From Acidimicrobiia bacterium (GTDB taxonomy: Bacteria > Actinomycetota > Acidimicrobiia > Spongiisociales > UBA11373), in assembly GCA_030584185.1 (NCBI GenBank), contig CP129495.1, forward strand, positions 639,608 to 703,607: 64,000 nucleotides of DNA, read 5' to 3'. Of the stretch, positions 2,902 through 61,625 are shown piece by piece. Made by a program: the position numbers and the translations under genes. The notes under the pieces were generated by a model that was given only the letters and a program-made list of their open reading frames with translations, searched no databases and was not told where the DNA came from. How positions within the stretch are numbered: position 1 is the first letter of the stretch; every line of letters starts with the position of its first letter.

Positions 2902-3217
2902 TCAGAGCCGACCGCCGGGGGTGGCCTCGAAGTCGTCGATGTCGAGCGCATGGCGAGGCCGCGGCGGGCGACGCCACGACGAGATACTCGCACCACAGTG
3001 GACCACGGCCCGCGAAGGGATGGACTCCCAGGGGGAGTGAAGCCTGCGAGCGCGACGCCGTACCACCCCTACGAGCAGAAGCGTGAGCACCGACAGGGCG
3101 ATGCCGAGCAGGGGACGCGCCAGACCCCGGGTGACCACGAGCCACCACACCCACGCCCCACCCAGGCCGTACACGAGAGTCAGGTAGGCAGCGATGATCG
3201 GAGAGTACCTGGGGCAT
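2902..3217 (-). pseudogene. Small membrane protein, apparently frameshifted in a C4 run just after the ATG
   Basis: ATGCCCCAGG at 3217; removing one C gives MPRYSPIIAAYLTLVYGLGGAWVWWLVV..., in frame with track ORF 2902..3174 (two TM-like segments). Confidence 0.4.
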
Positions 3218-3264
3218 GCACCCCGTATAGGGTGCCGGATCGACTCAGCCGATACTGGAGGACC

Positions 3265-5504: not shown

Positions 5505-5507
5505 AAG

Positions 5508-5857
5508 TGGAGGTGCGGGGAGTCGAACCCCGGTCCTCCGCCGTTTCGATGCCGGCATCTCCGAGCGCATCCGATGGAGTGGATTCGGGAGACGAGGCCC
5601 CATCGGAAGGTGGTCCCGTTCCCTATCCGGTGTGTCTCAGCCCGCCGCTACCGGAGTCCCGGCGGGAGCCTCCCCCATTGCGGCGCCCGGGTCCGGCGAG
5701 GGGGGAGCCCACCGGTCGGACGGGCTGCGCTAGTTAGGCAGCCAGTGCGAAGTTGTCTTCGGCACTTGTGTTTGATCCCGGTTCTTTAACGAGGACTCCG
5801 GGGACCTCGGCTCGCTTCCGGCACCTCCACCGTCGGAGTCGAAACCAGTTCACCCCC
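5508..5857 (-). ncRNA. ssrA: tmRNA, tag peptide (A)AEDNFALAA*
   Basis: 5' GGGGGTGAACTGGTTTCGAC; 3' GGTTCGACTCCCCGCACCTCCA; acceptor stem with G3.U wobble; tag ORF GCC GAA GAC AAC TTC GCA CTG GCT GCC TAA at 5763..5734; next to smpB; CCA not encoded. Confidence 0.97.
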
Positions 5858-5918
5858 GTGTTGGTGCCCACCAACTGTACAACGCGGTGCCGTCAAGACC
5901 AGTTCCCACCGAATGCCA

Positions 5919-6395
5919 TCAGTCGAGGCTCTTGTGACGGATCGCCCGCTGCATCTCGCGATCCGCCTGGCGGCGCTTGATCGTCTCGCGCTTGTCGAAA
6001 CGGACCTTGCCTTTGGCGAGACCCAACTCCACTTTGGCCAGACCCTTCTTGAAGTAGATCCGCAGCGGCACGACGGTGAGGCCCTTCTCGGCGACCTTGG
6101 CCGCCATCCGGTCGATCTCTGCTCGATGCAGCAACAGCTTGCGGGTCCGCTCCGGGTCGTGCCCCCCATCTCGGGCGAAGCCGTAGGGAGAGATCCGCAC
6201 CCCGAACAGCCAGAACTCGCCACCGTCGACGGCGGCGTAGGCGTCCTTGAGATCGACGAGCCCGGCGCGCATCGACTTGACCTCCGAGCCGGTGAGCGAC
6301 AGCCCCGCCTCCACCGTCTCCAGGATCTCGTAGTCGAAGCGGGCCCGCCGGTTGGTCGACACCACCTTGATTCCCGGCTCTGGGGTCTTGGCCAT
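5919..6395 (-). CDS. smpB: SsrA-binding protein SmpB
   Basis: 'NRRARFDYEILETVEAGLSLTGSEVKSMR', 'RTRKLLLHRAEI', 'KGKVRFDKRETIK'; ATG at 6395. Confidence 0.97.
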   Translation of the reverse strand: MAKTPEPGIKVVSTNRRARFDYEILETVEAGLSLTGSEVKSMRAGLVDLKDAYAAVDGGEFWLFGVRISPYGFARDGGHDPERTRKLLLHRAEIDRMAAKVAEKGLTVVPLRIYFKKGLAKVELGLAKGKVRFDKRETIKRRQADREMQRAIRHKSLD

Positions 6396-53110: not shown

Positions 53111-53770
53111 TCAGGCGCCGAGGGTGAGGCGCCCGGCGACGACCGCCCCCGCCCCGGTGAGGACCGCCAGATAGGACAGCCCGGTTGCGGCCATGACCGC
53201 CGGGTAGCCCCGCTCCCCCAGCGCCAGCCACACGCCGGCCATGAGCAGCGCCGTGGTCGCCGAGAGCGCCGCCCATCCCGGGCCGATGAAACCTTCGCCG
53301 GCGAGCGAGGCGCCGGCCACCAGGAGCACGCCGAAGTCGGCGGCCGCCCCGACCAGCCCGACCAGCGCCAGTGTCCGCAGCGACCGCCGGGGCAGCGAAG
53401 GGTCGACCAGGTACCAGTGCCCGAGCATCATCTCGGAGGTCACCCCCCCGAGCAGCACCGCCCCGGTGATCACCGACCACGGCGCCTCGCCCGAGCCGAG
53501 AGCAGCCACGACCAGGGCCGCACCGGCGAGGCCGGCCGCACCGGCGCGCAGAAGCGGCCGCCGCACCCCGACGAGGCCGACGACCAGGAGCCCGACTCCC
53601 GCCCAGGCCGCGGCGCCGCCACCGGCGGCCGCCGACGGGGCCGCGAAGAGCAAGGAGGCGCCGAGTGCCAGCCATGCGTATCCGACCCCGCCGATCCCCC
53701 AGCGGAAGACGAGCACCGCACCGCCGGCGAGACCGGCCGCCCAGGTGGCGAGCAGTGCCGCCGGCTCCAC
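53111..53770 (-). CDS. Hypothetical polytopic membrane protein
   Basis: 219 aa, hydrophobic; 'EMMLGHWYL' and 'ATGLSYL' motifs; 4 nt downstream of tkt. Confidence 0.7.
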   Translation of the reverse strand: MEPAALLATWAAGLAGGAVLVFRWGIGGVGYAWLALGASLLFAAPSAAAGGGAAAWAGVGLLVVGLVGVRRPLLRAGAAGLAGAALVVAALGSGEAPWSVITGAVLLGGVTSEMMLGHWYLVDPSLPRRSLRTLALVGLVGAAADFGVLLVAGASLAGEGFIGPGWAALSATTALLMAGVWLALGERGYPAVMAATGLSYLAVLTGAGAVVAGRLTLGA

Positions 53771-53774
53771 GCCG

Positions 53775-55721
53775 TCAGCGCCCCGAGAGCCAGTGCTCGA
53801 TCCGGGAGGCGACGGCGGGCGAGGTCAGGCCCATCTCTTCGGCGATCCGCTCCCAGGGGGCCGACGCCCCGAAACGGTCGATCCCGATGCGCAGCCCGTC
53901 GATGCCGACGAAACGCTCCCACCCGAACGGGGAGGCGGCCTCCAGAGACACCCGCGGGAGGCCGTCGCCGAGCACCGCCGTCCGGTACTCGTCGTCCTGT
54001 TCGAGGAACGCCTCCCAGCAGGGAAGGGAGACCACCTGCGCCGAGACGCCACCGGCGGCGAGCAGGTCGGCCGCTTCCAGCGCCACCCACACCTCGGAGC
54101 CGGTGGCGATCAGGACCAGGTCGGTGCCCGGGCGCAGCACGTAGCCGCCCCGATGGGCCGCCCCCTCCAGCCCGGTGCGATCGAGCACGGGGACTGCTTG
54201 CCTAGTGAGCACCAGGGCCGTCGGGCCCTCGGTGCGTTCCAGGGCCATCTCCCACGCCTCGGCGGTCTCGCCGGCGTCGGCGGGCCGCACCACGTGGAGC
54301 CCGGGGATCGCCCGGAGGGACGCCAGGTGCTCGATCGGCTGGTGTGTGGGACCGTCCTCGCCGAGGAACACCGAGTCGTGGGTGAACACGAAGATCGACG
54401 GCGCCCCCATGAGGGCGGCCAGGCGGATCGACGGCCTCATGTAGTCGCTGAAGACGAGAAAGGTCGCCCCGAAGGGCCTCAGGCCGCCGTGGATGGCGAT
54501 CCCGTTGACGGCCGCTCCCATGGCGTGCTCCCGCACCCCGAACCGGAGATTGTGGCCCGAGGGGCTGTCCTGGAACTCTCCCGCCTCGGCGATCAAGGTG
54601 TTGGTGGAGGGGGCAAGGTCGGCGGAGCCACCGATCAACCCGGGCATCTCGGAGGAGATCCTGTTGATCGCCCTGCCCGAGGCCTTGCGGGTCTCCACCC
54701 GCTCCCCCGGTTGGTATCCCAGGTCGCCGATCTCGATGGTGGGCGCCTGGAAGTGCCGCTCCCAGGCGGCGCGCCGTTCGGGGTCAGCGAAGGCCTTCTG
54801 GCTCCTCTCCAGCCATGCCTGGCGGGCGGCGCGCCCCCGATCCATCGCCGCCGCGAAGAACTCACGCACCTCGTCGGGAACCTCGAATTGGGGCAGGTCC
54901 CATCCGATCGACTCCTTGTAGGCGGTGATCTCGGCCGCTCCGAGGGGACTGCCGTGGGATGCGGCGGTGCCTTCGAGGGTCGGAGCGCCGTAGGCGATCC
55001 TGGTGTGGCAGGCGATCAGCGAGGGCCGGGGGTCGGCGGCGGCAGCCGTGATCGCCTGATCCACCGCCTGGCGGTCGTGCCCGTCGACGTCCAGGGTGTG
55101 CCAGCCGAAGGAGGTGAAGCGGGCGAGGACGTCTTCGGTGAAGGCGAGGTCGGTGCTCCCTTCGATCGATATCTCGTTGTCGTCGTACAGGAAGGTGATC
55201 CTCCCCAGGACGAGCCGCCCGGCCAGGGACGCCGCCTCGGAGGAGATGCCCTCCATGAGATCGCCGTCGCCGACGAAGGCGTAGGTGCGATGGTCGACCA
55301 GGTCTTCGCCGAGCGTGGCCCGCAGGTGCGCCTCGGCGATGGCCATGCCCACAGCGGTACCGAGACCCTGGCCCAAGGGACCGGTGGTCGTCTCGATCCC
55401 GAGGTGTGGCTCCCGCTCCGGGTGGCCGGGCGTCGCCGAACCCCACTGCCGGAATGCGGTGATGTCGTCCATCGTCACCGGGAACCCGCTCAGGTGGAGC
55501 AGCGAGTAGAGCAGCATCGAGCCGTGACCGTTGGAGAGGACGAACCGATCGCGGTCGGGCCAGAGCGGGTCGGAGGGGTCGACCCGAAGGTGGCGGCCCC
55601 ACAGGACCACGGCGATGTCGGCCATGCCCATCGGCATCCCGGGATGGCCACTGTCGGCCCTCTGGATGGCGTCGATGCTGAGGACGCGCAGGGTGTCGAC
55701 CGCTCGTTGCTCCGGGCTCAC
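53775..55721 (-). CDS. tkt: Transketolase
   Basis: 'SGHPGMP', 'LSNGHGSM', 'GDGDLMEG', 'GVREHAM', 'GEDGPTHQP'. Confidence 0.98.
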
Positions 55722-55754
55722 GCCCGGCAGGCTAACGAAACCCCACCCGGAGAC

Positions 55755-56840
55755 TCACTCCACGACCACCAGACCGCGCGGGGAACGGTTGAGCTCGTCG
55801 ATCCCATCGGCGGTGCACACGACGATGTCCTCGATGCGCAGCCCGAACTCGCCGGGGACGTAGATGCCGGGTTCGATGGAGAAAGCCATTCCCGGTTCGA
55901 GGGGGATCCGGTTGCCGGCGACGATGAAGGGGTGCTCGTGCACCTCCAGGCCGATCCCGTGGCCGGTGCGATGGATGAACCGCTCACCGAGCCCGGCGGC
56001 GTCGATCACCTGGCGGGCGGCGGCGTCGATGCTCTCGGCGGTGACTCCGGGCCGCACCGCGGAGCGTGCCGCCTCCTGGGCCTCCTCGAGCACGGCGTGG
56101 GCGGCCGCCACCGGCTCCCGGGGCGGGCCCATCGCGAAGGTCCGGGTGGTGTCCGAGTGGTATCCCCCCACTGTGCCGCCGAAGTCGACCACCACGGCGT
56201 CGCCCTCCACGATGGGGCGGCCACCGGGCTCGTGGTGGGGCGACGCCCCGTTGGGGCCGGCGGCGACGATCGCCGACCAGGCATGATCGTGGCCCTCTTC
56301 GACCGCCATCGCCTCCACCTTCGCTGCCAGCTGCCTCTCGGTGAGGCCGGAGAACCGGGTGGTCGCCAGGCGGACCGCCACCCGGTCGGCGGCGGCTCCC
56401 GCAGCGCGCAGCAGGTCGATCTCGGCGGGCTCCTTGCGCATGCGGAGCTCGCGGGTCAGCGGCGACGCCGGGGCGAATCCGGTGGCGGGCATCGCCTCCT
56501 GCAGGGAGAGCAGGAACACCGACCAGGTGTTGTCTCCGACGAGTGCTCGCCCAGGCGTACCCGCCAGGTCGACGACGATCTCCACCGGGTCCTCGGTCTC
56601 GTCCCAGGGCCGCACGGCGAACGCATCGCCCGGCACCTCCACCCGGGGCGCCTCCAGCCGAGGCACGACCAGGGTCGCCGGGCCGTCGGCGGGCACCACG
56701 AGCATTGTGAGCCGCTCCAGCTGGGGAGCGCTGTACCCGCTGAAGTAAGGGAGGTCGGCGCCGACGGACAGCAACAACAGGTCGATGCTGCGCTCCCCCA
56801 TCAGGGTCCGAGCACGGTCGAGGCGGGCGGCGTAATCCAT
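55755..56840 (-). CDS. Xaa-Pro peptidase family M24
   Basis: 'ASPHH', 'VVDFG...YHSDTTR', 'HRTGHGIGLEVHE', 'SIEPGIY', 'RIEDIV'. Confidence 0.95.
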   Translation of the reverse strand: MDYAARLDRARTLMGERSIDLLLLSVGADLPYFSGYSAPQLERLTMLVVPADGPATLVVPRLEAPRVEVPGDAFAVRPWDETEDPVEIVVDLAGTPGRALVGDNTWSVFLLSLQEAMPATGFAPASPLTRELRMRKEPAEIDLLRAAGAAADRVAVRLATTRFSGLTERQLAAKVEAMAVEEGHDHAWSAIVAAGPNGASPHHEPGGRPIVEGDAVVVDFGGTVGGYHSDTTRTFAMGPPREPVAAAHAVLEEAQEAARSAVRPGVTAESIDAAARQVIDAAGLGERFIHRTGHGIGLEVHEHPFIVAGNRIPLEPGMAFSIEPGIYVPGEFGLRIEDIVVCTADGIDELNRSPRGLVVVE

Positions 56841-56957
56841 GGGGAGAGGCTAGATGCGCGCTCCCGCTGGCGGTGTCACGGGGCGGGCGTCCCTGCCTGG
56901 GGAGGGGATTGCGAGGGTGGTCTGGGTTCTCGGTCCCCCACTCCTACCCCGCTGTCA

Positions 56958-56972
56958 GCACGCTGGCCGAGG
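56958..56972 (+). repeat. 15-bp direct repeat, left copy (GCACGCTGGCCGAGG)
   Basis: Identical to 58418..58432; companion motif TTGCGAGGGTG at 56909..56919. Confidence 0.85.
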
Positions 56973-57270
56973 CCAGTGCTCGCCAATGTCACCCGACAAC
57001 CAGACCACGACGAAGGGAAGACGACGGCCTCCCGAGCAGTCGGGTACGACCTCACAAGGTAGGTGGTGGCCATGACCAGGAGCAGCAGAAGCGACAGTTC
57101 GAGCGCATGACCCGAGACGCTACGACGAGGGTGTGACAGAACCCGGTATTTCCGACCCCACCACCAGCACCGCCCCCGTGGGGTCACAGGGGCGGACGGC
57201 TGGCCGATCTACCTGGCGGCTGTCGGTATGCGCTCGCTCAGGTCGCTTACTCCTGGCGGCAACACCGACT

Positions 57271-57465
57271 CTACAACGACACCACGACACGACCAGGGAT
57301 CACCATCACCGTCCTCGAGGAGTCGGTCAGCAGCACCCAACCGGCATCGAGCCGGTCGGCCGCAGTCCCCCCCCCCACTTGAATGGGGCGTTGACTCCCA
57401 GGATCGAGACGCACTCTCCGACTTGCACCCGGAGACAGCCCGCCGCTCGGAATCCTGATGGTCAT
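57271..57465 (-). CDS. Small hypothetical ORF (64 aa) containing a G10 tract
   Basis: ATG overlaps the stop of a 12-codon ORF (57500..57462); MTIRIPSGG...VVVSL*; may be decayed. Confidence 0.3.
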   Translation of the reverse strand: MTIRIPSGGLSPGASRRVRLDPGSQRPIQVGGGTAADRLDAGWVLLTDSSRTVMVIPGRVVVSL

Positions 57466-57499
57466 CGGCAGACCGACGACCACTCCCAGAAGGTCGCCA

Positions 57500-57712
57500 T
57501 CACAGCCCCATGACCTTCCGCCAGCACCGATCACAGACCCACCACAAACCATCATCGAGCAGAACCATCTCGCACCCGAGAGGCTGGAACCTCTCGCACA
57601 ACTCGCACCGACGACGAGACCGCCGAGGGGAGGGCGCCGTCCCCCGCCTCCGGCGGATGGCCGGCACCCCCTCACCCTTCGGAGATCCCCGCCGACCCTT
57701 GCGCCTACTCAT
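57500..57712 (-). CDS. Small basic protein with CxxC...CxxC
   Basis: ATGA overlap with the Rep-like stop; MSRRKGRR...CELC...CDRC...; 70 aa. Confidence 0.5.
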   Translation of the reverse strand: MSRRKGRRGSPKGEGVPAIRRRRGTAPSPRRSRRRCELCERFQPLGCEMVLLDDGLWWVCDRCWRKVMGL

Positions 57713-58335
57713 GCCGCCTCCCATGCCAGCCAACACGCATCACCACCCCGCTCAGAATCCCGCAGATCGAACGCCGACACCACCTCCACACCCGACGAGC
57801 CCGCCCACGACCTCGCCGCCTCCACAGCCGAGTTGTGAGGGTCTGGAACCTCCACCTCCACCCGGGCAGGCTGGAAGCCCTGAGCCACCGAGTACGCCTG
57901 CTCGCCACGACCAGCAGACCCCAGCCCCTTCGAGGCGTACGCATGAAGCGCCTTCGACGCATACCCCGAGGCCCCACGAGGGGAGTCCCACCGCTGCCAA
58001 TCGAACCCCCGATAACCACCACCGCCGCCGAACGACCAGGAGTCCTTCAGAGCCAGGAGCACCGACCGGGGGAGCACCGGGACGAGCACCATCCCGTTGT
58101 AGACCTCGAAGCCCATCCGCTCCGACCTCCGAGGCTGAACCTCCGGCATGAACGCATACGGCACCGCATCACCCATCGCCCGCTTCAGCCGACGAGCGAG
58201 GTTCGCCAAGTCGCCCTTCACCGCACCCCGATCCGACGCCCGATCCAGGTAGTCGTCGGAGTAGGTAGGCGACAACAGCACCCGCAGATCGTTCGCCACC
58301 ACGAACCTCCGAAGCCGCCCCACCGACCGCTTCAC
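57709..58335 (-). CDS. Rolling-circle replication initiator-like protein (phage G2P/inovirus-type Rep layout), HUH motif absent
   Basis: 'RS..RLRR...AN.L..LSPTY' (motif I), 'YAFMPE', 'GYASK..AYASK' (two YxxK), 'Y.VAQGFQP'; 208 aa; the frame stays open about 37 codons further upstream. Confidence 0.65.
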   Translation of the reverse strand: MKRSVGRLRRFVVANDLRVLLSPTYSDDYLDRASDRGAVKGDLANLARRLKRAMGDAVPYAFMPEVQPRRSERMGFEVYNGMVLVPVLPRSVLLALKDSWSFGGGGGYRGFDWQRWDSPRGASGYASKALHAYASKGLGSAGRGEQAYSVAQGFQPARVEVEVPDPHNSAVEAARSWAGSSGVEVVSAFDLRDSERGGDACWLAWEAA

Positions 58336-58376
58336 ATTGTCACGCCGCCGGTCGTCGTGGTCGAGTTGTGAGGGTG

Positions 58377-58383
58377 TATCAAG
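58377..58383 (-). other. Putative double-strand-origin nick motif CTTGATA
   Basis: Minus strand reads ...gttCTTGATAcaccctcacaa...; matches the phiX174/pC194-type nick heptamer; CCCGATCGGG palindrome just upstream. Confidence 0.5.
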
Positions 58384-58417
58384 AACAGGGGAGGCAGCCC
58401 GATCGGGTGTGCTTAGC

Positions 58418-58432
58418 GCACGCTGGCCGAGG
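58418..58432 (+). repeat. 15-bp direct repeat, right copy
   Basis: Identical to 56958..56972; companion motif TTGTGAGGGTG at 58366..58376. Confidence 0.85.
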
Positions 58433-58594
58433 GGACGGCGACGTCTTCAGTGCCTCAGCACCCCTGTCGGGACTTCGCCATCAGCTTCTGCCTCACGCTG
58501 TGACGACTCGGCCCCGCGCGATGTCGGAAATGCTGTGCACGCGCCATTACGAACGGACGGGACTTCCACTTCGACCCCGGTCGGAGGCCGTGGA

Positions 58595-58864
58595 TCAGTG
58601 CGTCTCGGGTCCCGTCACGTGTTGTTTGCGACGGGTCGAAGACAGGCCCGCGGCTACCAGAACTCCGACCGCAGCGCCTACGCCTACGTTCGCTGCACTA
58701 ATCACCACCGCGCTCACCCCGGTCCACAGACCCTCTCCCGCTTCGGCCGCGTAGTAGATGCCGGCCGCAGCGGCGACCATCGCCGTAGAGGCCCATAAGC
58801 CTCGCCTGTGGCGATGCAGGACTGCTCCCACCAGGACACCGACGATCAGGAGTGTGGGGTTCAT
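58595..58864 (-). CDS. Small membrane protein (89 aa)
   Basis: GGAGG RBS; MNPTLLIVGVLVGAVL...; three hydrophobic segments; 25 nt downstream of the secreted-protein gene. Confidence 0.7.
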   Translation of the reverse strand: MNPTLLIVGVLVGAVLHRHRRGLWASTAMVAAAAGIYYAAEAGEGLWTGVSAVVISAANVGVGAAVGVLVAAGLSSTRRKQHVTGPETH

Positions 58865-58889
58865 GACTTCTTCCTCCGCTCGGTAACAC

Positions 58890-59789
58890 TCAATAGGGGT
58901 CGTACCAGTGCCCTGTGGACAACAGCCAACTGCATCCACCCCACTTGTACAGAGCCCACGATGCCCACGAGGCAGGATCACCTGTTGCCTTGAACTCGAC
59001 AGTATGTTCGGTCCACGCGTCGATGGACAGGCAGAAGGTGCCATTGCGATACAGCCCATATGTGTGGAGACCCCGGTCGCACGACCCTGTGAAGTAGTAC
59101 GAGGATGAGTAGGTGGACCAACCGGAAGGGATGAACGGGGTCCACGACGACCACCGATTCCACGCCGTGGCGCAGGAGCCAGACCAACTCCATTGCTCAT
59201 TGCTGTATGTCTTCGCGACGTAGATGCCCACGGGGTCAGTGGTGTGACCTCGCATGAACCCCCGGTACTCGTAAGACGTGGCCGCAGCCGGCCCGGCTAG
59301 TGACTCCGATGTAGATGAAGCGTGTTCATCTACCAGGCCGGCGTCGGTCGCTACTCCCACCGGCAGCCAAGCACCTTCGAGCGTCTGGGAGCACTTGTCG
59401 AAGAAGAATCCGATCTCGCGCTCAACGTAGATCACCCCATCGAGCTTTGGTGCCTGAGCCGAGTCCACTGATCCCGAGAACTCGCACCCCGCCTCGCCAT
59501 CTCGCCACACTCGCTCTCCCAGGACCTCGGTCACCGAGTACTGGGGGTCGTAGTCGAGCAGGGCTGCTGACTGCGTGGCTGCGTCGAACATCGAATCGTG
59601 ATACCGATATTCGACCCGTCCGTCCGCGAACTTGACCGCGTCGAACATGACGCCTGCGACGAACGTGTCTACGGTTCCTGCGACAGCGTCACCGCCCAGC
59701 GACTCGCTTCCACCTGCGACGCCTACCGCGGCCGTACCGAGCGCTGTCAGTATCAGCACCGCCCCAACCAACAGCTTCGGAGGAACCAT
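58890..59789 (-). CDS. Secreted hypothetical protein with Trp/Cys-rich C-terminal domain
   Basis: AGGAG RBS, signal peptide MVPPKLLVGAVLILTALGTAAVGVAG; six Cys (four in the last ~95 aa); 299 aa. Confidence 0.78.
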   Translation of the reverse strand: MVPPKLLVGAVLILTALGTAAVGVAGGSESLGGDAVAGTVDTFVAGVMFDAVKFADGRVEYRYHDSMFDAATQSAALLDYDPQYSVTEVLGERVWRDGEAGCEFSGSVDSAQAPKLDGVIYVEREIGFFFDKCSQTLEGAWLPVGVATDAGLVDEHASSTSESLAGPAAATSYEYRGFMRGHTTDPVGIYVAKTYSNEQWSWSGSCATAWNRWSSWTPFIPSGWSTYSSSYYFTGSCDRGLHTYGLYRNGTFCLSIDAWTEHTVEFKATGDPASWASWALYKWGGCSWLLSTGHWYDPY

Positions 59790-60225
59790 GGCAACTCCTT
59801 TCCTCGGCATGGGTACCTCTCGGGTTCCTGGACTGCCCCCTCAGCCTTGGGTGATCCCAAGTTCTGCTAGGTTTGCCCAGAGTTTACCACACCGTTCGAA
59901 TGTTGCCAGGGCAACTCTGACCCATCAGGTGTTGGCAGGGCCGCTTCGGGACCCCCGACCTCACCGTCGAGCCTCGGATGACGCTTTCGGACGCTTTCGC
60001 GGCGAGGGCGGCCCGCCGGAGTTCGACGACCTTCACGCATTCTCACCCACTGATTCCGAGAGAGGACACCCATCCGATCAACGCGACTGACGGCTTCGTC
60101 CGTGTGGTACCCGATGTGAATTCGTCGGCAACCGGTAGGTTCGAATCGGTGGTGACCAAGACACCGGTCCACGGTGGTCGTGCCGTCGCTGACGGCGCCA
60201 GACGGACGGTGACGGTCGCTCGGCC

Positions 60226-60669
60226 CTAGCCGGGGAACAGCGTGGCGGTGTCGGCGAGCTCACCGGTCGAGTACGACCAGTCGTAACGGAGCGAACTCTC
60301 GGATCGGATCAGGTGCACCAGGCCGTCGTCGGAGCAGATGTCCCCGGGGTTCACGATGATGGTCTCTCGGGCCGTGACCGACACTCCGTCGATCTCGAGG
60401 AGGGTCAGGGTGCCGGCACAGTCGTATCCGGGGTAGCTGATCTCGGCAAAGACTTCGCCGACGGAGGAACTGCCGTTGAAGGCGATCCGGACACCGTATG
60501 ACCGGCTGTCGACCTGGGCAGCCGACCATTCGGATGCGAGGTCCTGGAAGAAGACTTCGGAGGAGACCTCGCTGGAATCCGGGGTGCTGACCGCCGGCGC
60601 ATCATCGCCTCCGCAAGCTGAAACGGCGAGGATCACCGCGACGACCGACAAGAGCCTGGCGTACCTCAC
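60226..60669 (-). CDS. Hypothetical lipoprotein
   Basis: Lipobox VSA-C, acidic linker, beta-rich domain with two Cys; 147 aa. Confidence 0.78.
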   Translation of the reverse strand: MRYARLLSVVAVILAVSACGGDDAPAVSTPDSSEVSSEVFFQDLASEWSAAQVDSRSYGVRIAFNGSSSVGEVFAEISYPGYDCAGTLTLLEIDGVSVTARETIIVNPGDICSDDGLVHLIRSESSLRYDWSYSTGELADTATLFPG

Positions 60670-60830
60670 GCTCCCCCTCTCGGTGTTGCTGCCAGGACGA
60701 TACTCCGCTCCCCGTCTCGGCGGCGACCGCCAAGAGGATCCGGTCGGTTGGGATCACCGCTTGTGGGGGTGATCGCCGGCCGGTGTCCTCGGGCAACCTC
60801 CCCATGCCGTGGCTGAGAGGCAGGACACCA

Positions 60831-61625
60831 TCACTCCGCCGAGCGCCGCATCAGCGTGTGACTCGCCAACGCCTTGACCGCGTCGAAGCCGCGGGCGTCG
60901 TACATCGAGCGAGTGCCTCGGAAGTGACGCGCCTCTGCGGCCTGCACGGCGTCGGAGTGGGGGTAGGCCTCGATCCATGCCACGCCGCGCCGGGCGGCAT
61001 CGGCGATCACGCGGTCGAGAAGCACCCCGGCGACACCGTGCCGACGGTACGGCGGTGCGACCACGTAACAGGAGACGCCGATCACGCTCTCCGGGACGGG
61101 ACCCTCGGGATCGACGTGGCGCAACGCCAACGGCGAGTCGGAGCCGGGCAGATCCGCGTAGTTGGCGCGAATCGAGGCATTGACCCATCCTGCCGGCCTG
61201 CCGTCCACGTAGGCCAGGTAGCCGAAGGTGCCGCCGCTGCGGAGGCGCTCGATCATCACCTGCCTGGTGGTACGCCACGGCGCCTCAGGTTCCTCGTCGG
61301 TCGGCGGTCGGTGGGGTGACAGGCAGTAACAGGATGCCCAGTCGGGATCGCCGGCGAAGCCGTCGTGGTCGAAGAGCTGCAACCAGTCGTCGATCCGGTC
61401 GCTCGACACCGGATGGACGGTGATCTCCCCGATCGCCTCGAGGCGTTCGGTGCTTCCGGTGAGCCGCTCGGTCGCCTCGGCGTAGTTGCGTGCGAAGTTG
61501 CGCAGCGCCTCCTCGGGATACTGCGTCTGGTGATCGGCGCGCACATGGGCGACGAAGGCGTCGGCGATCGCCTCTACATCGTCCCCCTCGAATGTCCCGT
61601 CGCCGGCGTAACACACCACCTGCAT
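60831..61625 (-). CDS. GNAT acetyltransferase with small N-terminal (DUF1059-like) domain
   Basis: 'WASCYC', 'GYLAYVDGRPAGW', 'VSCYVVAPPYRRHGVA..LL', 'IEAYP', 'FRGT.SMY...GF'. Confidence 0.85.
   Translation of the reverse strand: MQVVCYAGDGTFEGDDVEAIADAFVAHVRADHQTQYPEEALRNFARNYAEATERLTGSTERLEAIGEITVHPVSSDRIDDWLQLFDHDGFAGDPDWASCYCLSPHRPPTDEEPEAPWRTTRQVMIERLRSGGTFGYLAYVDGRPAGWVNASIRANYADLPGSDSPLALRHVDPEGPVPESVIGVSCYVVAPPYRRHGVAGVLLDRVIADAARRGVAWIEAYPHSDAVQAAEARHFRGTRSMYDARGFDAVKALASHTLMRRSAE

What the first reader, a model, noticed from the sequence alone, without database searches (positions are those of the whole stretch)
56909..58432. Candidate minimal rolling-circle element bounded by a duplicated origin-like sequence
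Seen: the same two-part signature at both ends: exact GCACGCTGGCCGAGG (56958, 58418; 1,460 bp apart) and CACCCTC[A/G]CAA on the minus strand 38 vs 41 bp away. Only the upstream copy has CTTGATA and a CCCGATCGGG palindrome, directly before a Rep-like ORF. No integrase, transposase, capsid or pI/Zot ATPase. Established: phiX174/pC194-type Reps nick at CTTG^ATA, and integrated RCR elements can be released between an initiation and a termination origin. Inference: a ~1.46-kb Rep-only replicon, phage satellite or RC-transposon-like unit, possibly undescribed in Acidimicrobiia. Strongest novelty candidate in the window.
Basis: partly seen in the sequence, partly recalled or inferred. Interest (0 to 1): 0.75.

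Follow-up and report, generated by a model that had tools for sequence, protein, structure and literature searches.

The report
Tiny Rep-only plasmid integrated in chromosome
A 1,460-bp circular replicon that carries a single replication-initiator gene has inserted into the chromosome of an uncultured Acidimicrobiia bacterium by one crossover inside that gene, which gives a host to a previously undescribed family of ~1.3-kb circular DNAs whose initiator lacks the usual two-histidine (HUH) motif.

Summary
GCACGCTGGCCGAGG occurs exactly twice in the window (56958, 58418), 1,460 bp apart, around a Rep-like ORF.

The N-terminal 39 codons of the Rep lie at the left end (57073-56957, minus strand) and the other 235 codons at the right end (58432-57712). 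The 15-mer reads L-G-Q-R-A in the same frame in both copies. Closing the circle at the 15-mer therefore restores a 274-aa Rep, colinear with relatives that sit alone on circular metagenome contigs of 1,293, 1,304 and 1,335 bp.

The Rep belongs to the ORF2/G2P (PF23343) group of rolling-circle initiators, by profile-profile comparison and by predicted fold. Its clade has Y/F-N-G/S where HUH should be.

The "duplicated origin" reading is not supported. The 15-mer is the crossover point in a variable linker of rep and is not conserved in the family. The conserved origin-like block (CTGTTCTTGAT..CCCTCACAACTCGAC) occurs once as a whole.

Integration split rep, and no recombinase gene is nearby. Eight independent assemblies show only the integrated form. 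The copy is most likely stranded after short-homology recombination; programmed, reversible integration is not excluded.

Verdict: a new variant of a known kind, of moderate interest.

The parts
56958..56972 (+). Left copy of the 15-bp crossover core (attL-like), GCACGCTGGCCGAGG. On the minus strand it reads L-G-Q-R-A of Rep.
   Evidence: Exact match, one of only two in the window. Same reading frame as the right copy.
58418..58432 (+). Right copy of the 15-bp core (attR-like).
   Evidence: The flanks beyond the core are not similar to each other.
56958..58417 (.). One unit length (1,460 bp) of the integrated circular replicon. Equivalently 56973-58432, since the crossover may lie anywhere in the core.
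   Evidence: Circularising here gives an open 274-aa Rep ORF. Relatives are 1,293-1,335-bp circles. GC skew is -0.2 to -0.3 across 57200-58400.
56957..57073 (-). Rep N-terminal fragment, codons 1-39 (MATTYLVRSYPTAREAVVFPSSWSG...GLGQRA), ATG at 57073. In the integrated state the frame runs on into chromosomal DNA to a stop at 56876-56878.
   Evidence: tblastn of the joined Rep: residues 1-39, 100%. Aligns with the N-termini of L001, P0003, P0008 and P0009. The motif is also encoded upstream of the truncated gene calls in L004 and L007.
57709..58432 (-). Rep C-terminal fragment, residues 35-274 plus stop. It holds motif 1 (LLSPTY), the HUH-position strand (EVYNGMVLV) and the tyrosine motif (YASKALHAYASK). 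No start codon lies before the GTG at 58335. An in-frame TGA lies in the chromosomal flank at 58447-58449.
   Evidence: Homologues. Alignments. hhalign against the HUH relatives gives probability 100%.
58358..58388 (-). Candidate double-strand origin inside the rep ORF: CTGTTCTTGATACACCCTCACAACTCGACCA. It holds a pC194/phiX174-like CTTGAT(A) followed by the CCCTCACAACTCG motif.
   Evidence: Best-conserved DNA between the window and L001. Also present in L089 and, more loosely, in L091. Nicking has not been shown.
57828..57844 (-). Second direct copy of the CCCTCACAACTCG motif, inside the rep 3' half. It is read in a different frame (D-P-H-N-S) from the first copy (P-S-Q-L).
   Evidence: Exact 13-mer twice in the element and nowhere else in the window. 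The longest three-way identical DNA runs between window, L001 and L089 are these two motif copies.
57074..57708 (-). 633-nt non-coding part of the circle, between the rep stop and the rep start. It is rich in perfect hairpins, has a run of ten G on the rep-sense strand (57367-57376) and an inverted, 2-mismatch copy of the motif at 57593-57605. Candidate single-strand origin and rep promoter.
   Evidence: DNA fold -150.5 kcal/mol, z = -4.35 against shuffles. Not conserved in sequence with L001. Motif copy.
58398..58407 (.). CCCGATCGGG palindrome between the core and the CTTGATA.
   Evidence: Read directly. Not conserved in L001 or L089.
56909..56919 (+). Chromosomal TTGCGAGGGTG, the look-alike of the element's TTGTGAGGGTG. 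It lies outside the element and is probably coincidental.
   Evidence: borderline (22 of 5,000 position-restricted shuffles; not above chance as a free alignment).

Best explanation
Window 56958-58417 is one unit length of a 1,460-bp circular rolling-circle-type replicon whose only gene is a replication initiator (Rep). It entered the chromosome by a single reciprocal (Campbell-type) crossover at a 15-bp sequence, GCACGCTGGCCGAGG, shared by the replicon and the intergenic region upstream of the M24 peptidase gene.

Shown:
- The crossover lies inside rep. The first 39 codons now sit at the left end and the remaining 235 at the right end, and the 15-mer is duplicated at both junctions.
- Free relatives are 1.29-1.34-kb circles carrying only this Rep.
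- The Rep belongs to the ORF2/G2P (PF23343) group of HUH-superfamily initiators. It keeps motif 1 and the tyrosine motif (YASK....YASK). Its whole clade has Y/F-N-G/S in place of H-U-H.

Inferred:
- As a free circle the Rep nicks the rep-sense strand in the conserved block CTGTTCTTGAT..CCCTCACAACTCGAC inside its own gene.
- The displaced G-rich strand is converted back to duplex from the hairpin-rich 633-nt non-coding region.
- Integration was not programmed. It was short-homology (illegitimate) recombination at a chance-shared 15-mer.
- Because it removed a conserved N-terminal element of Rep, the copy is a stranded, probably inert, recent fossil. An integrant with intact rep and origin would keep nicking the chromosome, so rep-disrupting integrants are the ones expected to survive.

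The confidence given (0.6) is for the whole statement, including the unprogrammed mode of integration. That the locus is an integrated Rep-only circle with a split rep I hold at about 0.9.
For: Split gene:
- The joined ORF is open for 319 codons, 274 aa counted from the ATG.
- tblastn places residues 1-39 at 57073-56957 and residues 35-274 at 58431-57712, overlapping by LGQRA.
- P0009 reads ...GLGHSALSTP... straight across the junction.
- The N-terminal residues Y5, Y10, P11, A13, E15 and A16 are invariant among the close relatives. The motif is also present in the HUH relatives.

Free circles:
- L001 has a 121-bp terminal overlap, giving 1,304 bp.
- L089 has a 30-bp overlap, giving 1,293 bp. 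L090, from another run, is a rotation of it.
- L091 has a 29-bp overlap, giving 1,335 bp. L092 and L093 show a period of about 1,321 bp.

Rep identity:
- phmmer hits to PF23343 proteins.
- hhalign probability 100%, E = 3.8e-41.
- AlphaFold model of P0003 with pLDDT 83.9. It matches ORF2/G2P, gene A and microvirus Reps in BFVD at E down to 6.6e-9.

HUH-less clade.

Origin block.

Structured non-coding region.

The 15-mer is not a dedicated site:
- It is poorly conserved or absent in relatives.
- Four chance-shared 14-mers occur between the element and 62 kb of the window, which extrapolates to dozens of shared 15-mers per genome.
- An unrelated contig in X2 and X3 carries an 18-mer that includes it.

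Other points:
- No recombinase gene nearby.
- Only integrated-form contigs in 8 runs, including depths of 520x and 207x.
- The junctions are real: independent assemblies span them with no differences.
Against: - The two rep fragments carry no stop or frameshift and keep every family-invariant residue. That fits a recent event, but equally a copy that is still used.
- The chromosomal flank has a 10/11 look-alike of the element's TTGTGAGGGTG at nearly the same distance from the core (22 of 5,000 shuffles). This could mean the target was recognised rather than hit by chance.
- In the circular form the core lies in a small hairpin (CTGGCC-GA-GGCCAG on the + strand) that is kept in L089, as some recombination or nick sites are.
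- Only contigs were available, not reads, so rare excision products would have been missed.
- No empty site could be examined.
- Nicking, the single-strand intermediate and the activity of an HUH-less Rep are all untested.
Confidence: 0.6

Rival explanations
1. Programmed, reversible integration. The 15-mer is a true attachment site inside rep, so integration splits the gene and excision restores it, as attP inside the integrase gene does in SSV1-type fuselloviruses. The reaction is catalysed either by the Rep itself through strand transfer, like TrwC or AAV Rep acting on origin-like targets, or by a recombinase supplied in trans.
For: - The exact direct repeats bracket exactly one unit.
- Both rep fragments are intact.
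- The two-part resemblance of the target (core plus TTGYGAGGGTG at 38/41 nt) is borderline significant.
- A small hairpin over the core in the circular form is also seen in L089.
- HUH enzymes can integrate DNA at origin-like targets (review PMC5714925).
Against: - The core is not conserved in the family and is missing from the P0003/P0008 branch.
- Only one integrated copy is known, against four or five free circles.
- No recombinase lies in or near the element.
- No circle or empty-site contig was found in 8 runs, including 520x depth.
- The family-conserved nick-like block lies about 30-70 nt from the core, not in it.
- The split removes a conserved N-terminal part of Rep, so the integrated copy could not supply its own enzyme.
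Confidence: 0.22
2. The two 15-mers are an initiation origin and a termination origin, and the resident Rep releases the intervening 1.46 kb by rolling-circle replication, as a mini-replicon or an IS91/Helitron-like RC transposon.
For: Direct repeats flank a Rep ORF. A CTTGATA lies next to the right copy. RCR initiators can terminate at a second origin copy (established knowledge of the pC194 and phiX174 families, from memory).
Against: - The origin-like conserved block accompanies only one of the two 15-mers.
- The 15-mer is coding sequence of a variable linker.
- The resident rep is cut in two and has no start codon before residue 67.
- The unit is a circular permutation with rep across the junction, not a gene sitting between two ends.
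- There is a single copy in the window.
Confidence: 0.05
3. Assembly artefact: a free small circle wrongly joined into a chromosomal contig.
For: The source is a metagenome-type genome. Small, high-copy circles can confuse assemblers.
Against: Independent Logan assemblies of at least 10 runs from several studies span both junctions with no differences. A 15-bp overlap is shorter than any assembler k-mer in use.
Confidence: 0.02

Closest known systems
Small cryptic rolling-circle plasmids that carry only rep (for example pRQ7 of Thermotoga, 846 bp, and the pC194/pUB110 family; named from memory)
   Same: A circular replicon of about 1.3-1.5 kb with a single initiator gene. A CTTGAT(A)-type sequence in a conserved block. 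A structured non-coding region that could serve as a single-strand origin. A two-tyrosine YxxK motif.
   Different: - No sequence match to any of 72,556 PLSDB plasmids.
- The Rep belongs to the ORF2/G2P group rather than Rep_1 or Rep_2.
- The HUH histidines are absent.
- The candidate origin lies inside the rep ORF.
- The host is an uncultured Acidimicrobiia bacterium.
Inovirus/plectrovirus-type initiators, Pfam PF23343 REP_ORF2-G2P (for example the replicase of Ralstonia phage p12J)
   Same: Homologous by profile-profile comparison and by predicted fold. The HUH-bearing actinobacterial relatives P0004 and P0005 hit PF23343. P0005 matches the p12J replicase at 30% identity.
   Different: - The window Rep does not reach the Pfam model at all.
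- It lacks HUH and has a 5-residue RSER insertion before that strand.
- The replicon has no coat, Zot/pI or integrase genes.
phiX174 gene A and its origin
   Same: The origin is embedded in the initiator's own coding sequence. The motifs are similar: phiX CAACTTGATA (from memory) against CTTGATA..CACAACTCGAC here. Fold hits include 'replication gene A protein' and microvirus initiators.
   Different: There are no capsid genes. The genome is a quarter of the size. No HUH.
SSV1-type integration (attP inside the integrase gene, split on integration) and chromosomally integrated RCR plasmids such as pT181 (bioRxiv 10.1101/2025.09.14.675889, listed)
   Same: The element's key gene is cut in two by integration and would be rebuilt on excision. 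An RCR plasmid resides in a chromosome.
   Different: There is no integrase here. The split gene is the replication initiator. Unlike pT181 (IS257-flanked, from memory), no IS elements flank the copy. Nothing shows that the split is a programmed feature.

Membership tests
HUH-superfamily rolling-circle initiators (ORF2/G2P group, PF23343) | Significant match to the family profile | tested here: inconclusive
   No direct Pfam hit, even at E <= 10, for the 208-aa ORF, the joined 274-aa Rep or P0003. The clade profile nevertheless matches PF23343-bearing relatives with hhalign probability 100%, E = 3.8e-41, and phmmer E = 7e-5 in 5.8 billion sequences.
HUH-superfamily rolling-circle initiators (ORF2/G2P group, PF23343) | Motif 2: H-hydrophobic-H on a beta strand (metal binding) | tested here: not met
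   The aligned strand reads EVYNGMVLV. In the clade it is Y/F/L-N-G/S/T/P-M, and there is no histidine in the region. In the P0003 model this segment is strand 152-158.
HUH-superfamily rolling-circle initiators (ORF2/G2P group, PF23343) | Motif 3: catalytic tyrosine(s), YxxK, on a helix | tested here: met
   Y191/K194 and Y199/K202 (YASKALHAYASK). Y199 and K202 are invariant in all 40 aligned sequences, as Y206 and K209 of P0003. The segment is helix 195-213 in the model.
HUH-superfamily rolling-circle initiators (ORF2/G2P group, PF23343) | Motif 1 (hydrophobic-TLTY/F-like strand) and the overall fold | tested here: met
   LLSPTY aligns with LWTLTY. Foldseek against BFVD gives E = 6.6e-9, probability 1.00 and TM-score 0.5-0.6 to ORF2/G2P, gene A and microvirus initiators. 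The PDB gave only weak AAV Rep and RRM-like hits. The model is of the relative P0003, not of the window protein itself.
Rolling-circle plasmid | Exists as a free circular molecule | tested here: inconclusive
   Relatives do: L001, L089/L090, L091 and L093. For the window's own element only the integrated form was seen, in 8 runs of contigs.
Rolling-circle plasmid | Double-strand origin with a nick site cut by Rep; single-strand intermediate; single-strand origin | not testable with these tools
   Candidates only: the conserved CTGTTCTTGAT..CCCTCACAACTCGAC block, strong strand skew and a hairpin-rich non-coding region with z = -4.35.
Integrative element with site-specific att sites | Direct repeats of a core at both junctions | tested here: met
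   An exact 15-bp repeat at both junctions.
Integrative element with site-specific att sites | Own recombinase, and an att core conserved among relatives | tested here: not met
   No recombinase in the element or within about 5 kb. The core is 13/15 in L089, about 11/15 in L001, and its segment is absent from P0003 and P0008.
Integrative element with site-specific att sites | Empty site in related genomes | not testable with these tools
   The closest peptidase in 185,579 species genomes is 65% identical. Peptidase-transketolase synteny is kept, but the upstream side is not syntenic.
IS91 / ISCR / Helitron-type rolling-circle transposon | Intact HUH transposase between distinct ori and ter ends; multiple copies | tested here: not met
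   The gene is split across the ends as a permuted circle. There is a single copy in the window. No relatives were found in 185,579 species genomes.
Filamentous phage or phage satellite | Coat and assembly genes, or a demonstrated helper | tested here: not met
   Rep is the only gene in the element and in the free circles. There is no PHROG hit and no match in 50,697 phage records. Dependence on a helper cannot be tested here.

The most novel reading that the evidence does not exclude
The 1.3-1.5-kb circles are an undescribed class of minimal replicons of Acidimicrobiia, possibly satellites of inovirus-like elements. Their initiator works without the HUH metal-binding histidines. They lysogenise by a reversible recombination at a site inside their own rep gene, so that integration switches replication off and excision rebuilds the gene, with the Rep or a host enzyme acting as recombinase.
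Probability: 0.12. Interest if true: 0.85.

Novelty: new variant of a known kind. Interest (0 to 1): 0.55.

Why it matters
**Host link.** The copy ties a family of anonymous ~1.3-kb circular contigs from metagenomes to a bacterial host, an abundant wastewater and bioreactor Acidimicrobiia lineage. This kind of link is usually missing for such elements.

**Size.** The family sits near the lower size limit for autonomous DNA replicons: one gene, with the candidate origin inside it.

**Active site.** Its initiator is clearly homologous to HUH endonucleases but has lost both histidines in a conserved way. This raises a testable question about how metal binding and catalysis are achieved.

**Integration.** The copy is a clean natural example of a rolling-circle plasmid captured by the chromosome through a 15-bp identity, with the initiator gene cut. 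Only such disabled integrants may be tolerated.

**Possible use.** A 1.3-kb replicon could serve as a vector backbone for high-GC Actinomycetota if it proves functional.

Tried and rejected
- **Family libraries.** Pfam, PHROGs and NCBIfam scans of the ORF and of neighbouring ORFs gave nothing for Rep.
- **tRNA or RNA gene as target.** No tRNA lies near the site and there is no Rfam match in 56000-61000.
- **Extended homology of the flanks to the element (older remnant or tandem copy).** None beyond chance.
- **Promoter and terminator scan of 56700-58700.** No sites.
- **Rep relatives in collections.** None in species genomes or viral contigs. The metagenome scan found only one distant HUH relative (L008).
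- **Empty site.** The closest genomes are too distant, at 65% peptidase identity.
- **Circle or empty-site forms.** Eight runs were laid, contigs only, and none showed them.
- **Exact look-up of the joined Rep and of the fragments among 15 billion proteins.** None is present, not even the fragments the window encodes, so the test is uninformative.
- **PDB.** By sequence nothing; by fold nothing below 1e-3.
- **PLSDB and phage records.** No tblastn match.
- **dif/XerCD-type site.** Rejected by inspection: the GC-rich core has no resemblance to dif (from memory, not computed).
- **Literature.** Five searches found no description of this family or of PF23343.
Full report
**1. The observation**

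The 15-mer GCACGCTGGCCGAGG is exact at 56958-56972 and 58418-58432 and nowhere else in the 64-kb window. The nearest other sites have two mismatches. The bases next to each copy differ, so the repeat is exactly 15 bp.

- TTGCGAGGGTG at 56909 and TTGTGAGGGTG at 58366, which lie 38 and 41 nt from the repeat.
- CTTGATA on the minus strand at 58383-58377.
- CCCGATCGGG at 58398-58407.

The second half of the "two-part signature" is weak. As a free local alignment of the two left flanks it scores 17 against a shuffle mean of 16.2. With position restricted to +-3 nt, 22 of 5,000 shuffles reach a 10/11 match.

**2. What the ORF is**

The 208-aa ORF 57709-58335 (minus) matches no model in Pfam, PHROGs or NCBIfam. 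A search of 5.8 billion proteins gave two kinds of hit:
- Two close relatives, P0002 and P0003, at 54-57% identity, on contigs of 1,425 and 1,703 bp.
- Distant relatives at 27-29% identity that carry Pfam PF23343, "Replication-associated protein ORF2/G2P".

A full HMMER scan of 1.84 billion representatives added P0008-P0014 and P0017 to the close clade, and some 230 more distant proteins.

Three further results make the protein a rolling-circle initiator:
- The profile of the close clade matches the profile of the PF23343 relatives with hhalign probability 100%, E = 3.8e-41.
- An AlphaFold model of P0003 (pLDDT 83.9, pTM 0.82) matches predicted structures of ORF2/G2P proteins, "replication gene A protein" and microvirus initiators at E down to 6.6e-9. 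The PDB gave only weak AAV-Rep and RRM-like hits.
- One HUH relative, P0005, matches the replicase of the filamentous Ralstonia phage p12J at 30% identity.

**3. The key finding: the gene is split and the unit is a permuted circle**

The relatives have an N-terminal segment (Y..YP.A.EA.V....W.G) that the 208-aa ORF lacks. That segment is encoded at the other end of the unit, on the minus strand from the ATG at 57073 down to the left 15-mer (MATTYLVRSYPTAREAVVFPSSWSGCRVTLASTGLGQRA).

Read on the minus strand, the 15-mer is L-G-Q-R-A in the same frame in both copies. Joining 56958-58417 into a circle gives a frame that is open for 319 codons, with a 274-aa Rep counted from the ATG.

Confirmation comes from three directions:
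- tblastn of the joined protein against the window gives residues 1-39 at 57073-56957 and residues 35-274 at 58431-57712, both at 100%.
- The joined protein is colinear with the relatives. P0009 reads GLGHSALSTP straight across the junction.
- In the integrated state the C-terminal fragment has an in-frame TGA in the chromosomal flank (58447-58449) and no start codon before the GTG at 58335.

The N-terminal motif is also encoded upstream of the truncated gene calls in the HUH relatives L004 and L007. It is therefore a conserved part of the protein, and the split has probably inactivated the gene.

**4. Free relatives are tiny circles**

- L001 has a 121-bp terminal overlap, giving a 1,304-bp circle with one gene, a 292-aa Rep.
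- L089 has a 30-bp overlap (1,293 bp). L090, from another run, is a rotation of the same circle.
- L091 has a 29-bp overlap (1,335 bp).
- L092 and L093 repeat with a period of about 1,321 bp.

None of these circles carries anything recognisable except Rep. The window element, at 1,460 bp, is the same kind of object caught in a chromosome.

**5. The 15-mer is a crossover point, not an origin**

- The flanks beyond it are unrelated.
- In the relatives the equivalent stretch is 13/15 identical in L089 and about 11/15 in L001. The segment is missing altogether from P0003 and P0008. It lies in a variable linker of the protein.
- Chance sharing is expected. The element shares four 14-mers with the other 62 kb of the window. 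That extrapolates to dozens of shared 15-mers in a genome of a few Mb.
- An unrelated contig in two runs carries an 18-mer that includes the core.

**6. The conserved DNA lies elsewhere**

The conserved block is CTGTTCTTGATACACCCTCACAACTCGACCA (58388-58358, minus). It is the best-conserved DNA between the window and L001. It is present in L089, and more loosely in L091.

Its 13-mer CCCTCACAACTCG occurs a second time, at 57841-57829. There it is read in another frame: P-H-N-S instead of P-S-Q-L. These two copies are the longest runs of three-way DNA identity between window, L001 and L089. That points to constraint at the DNA level.

This block is the best candidate for the double-strand origin. 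Its CTTGAT resembles the pC194/phiX174 nick sequence (from memory). Nicking is inferred, not shown.

The 633-nt non-coding part folds far better than shuffles (z = -4.35). The rep-sense strand is strongly G-rich. Both fit a single-strand intermediate.

**7. The motif variant**

Where the relatives have HGLHVHF, the window Rep and its whole clade have, for example, GFEVYNGMV, preceded by an invariant Q-P-x-R-S-(E/A) insertion. There is no histidine in the region. In the model this stretch is the expected beta strand and the tyrosine motif the expected helix.

The clade is conserved at 28-57% identity to the window Rep, and it sits on circles that must replicate. The change is therefore a functional variant, not decay.

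**8. Integration state and mechanism**

No integrase, transposase or phage gene lies in the element or within about 5 kb. The neighbours are:
- on one side, transketolase and an M24 peptidase;
- on the other side, small membrane, secreted and lipoprotein ORFs, a GNAT acetyltransferase and an amidohydrolase.

No tRNA or Rfam RNA marks the site.

At least 20 public runs from sludge, bioreactors, biofilm and soil hold every sampled word of the stretch across the locus. In the eight runs I laid, including depths of 520x and 207x, one contig spans both junctions with no differences, and no circle or empty-site contig appears. This rules out an assembly artefact. It also suggests that the integrated form is fixed and that excision is at most rare. 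Only contigs were available, not reads.

The closest genomes in the species collection are too distant to show an empty site.

I therefore favour a single, unprogrammed crossover at a chance-shared 15-mer. The survival of this integrant would be explained by the break in rep. The intact reading frames mean the event is recent, or the copy is still used. A programmed, reversible integration is kept as a rival at about 0.2.

**9. Comparison and novelty**

The thing works like a minimal rolling-circle plasmid. It is a relative of the inovirus ORF2/G2P initiators, but it fails the HUH criterion and the Pfam threshold. It has no match in PLSDB or in phage records. Five literature searches found no description of it.

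I rate it a new variant of a known kind, with interest 0.55.

Noticed in passing
window 58433-60800: The block to the right of the element has lower G+C (0.59-0.65 against 0.70-0.77 to the left). It encodes a small membrane protein (58595-58864, minus), a 306-aa secreted protein and a 147-aa lipoprotein, none with a family match. Synteny with the nearest Acidimicrobiia genomes stops at the 5' end of the peptidase gene. It may be a variable region or an island.
   Followed up: partly
L092 1455-2108: The ENA contig that carries the P0012 element continues, after a 92%-identical repeat of its first 155 bp, into a different Rep with a zinc-finger-like CPVCG and a normal HUH (GHHAHLW). This is either a co-integrate or tandem of two small replicons, or a chimeric assembly.
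   Followed up: no
L004 6001-8155; L006 6001-8311: The HUH-bearing actinobacterial relatives of this Rep sit next to a large serine recombinase, beside a run of small unannotated ORFs, in long chromosomal contigs. These look like integrated inovirus-like or small integrative elements.
   Followed up: partly
window 57828-57844 and 58358-58388: The same 13-mer, CCCTCACAACTCG, is translated in two different frames (PHNS and PSQL). Both peptides are conserved in the nearest relatives. A third, inverted copy with two mismatches lies in the non-coding region at 57593-57605.
   Followed up: partly
window 5507-5857: tmRNA gene on the minus strand, tag peptide AEDNFALAA.
   Followed up: no
window 53241-57062 (+): A 1,273-aa open frame runs antisense across the transketolase and peptidase genes and into the element. 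It is a high-G+C artefact, not a gene.
   Followed up: no
window 56956-56973 and 57158-57175: One unrelated contig in each of runs X2 and X3 shares two 18-mers with the window, in opposite orientations. One of them includes the 15-bp core. I treated them as chance matches in G+C-rich metagenomes.
   Followed up: no
L004 ~5890-6000; L007 ~3110-3218: The gene calls for P0004 and P0006 start too late. The conserved N-terminal W/Y..L.(Y/C)P.AAEGGG motif is encoded in frame upstream of both.
   Followed up: yes
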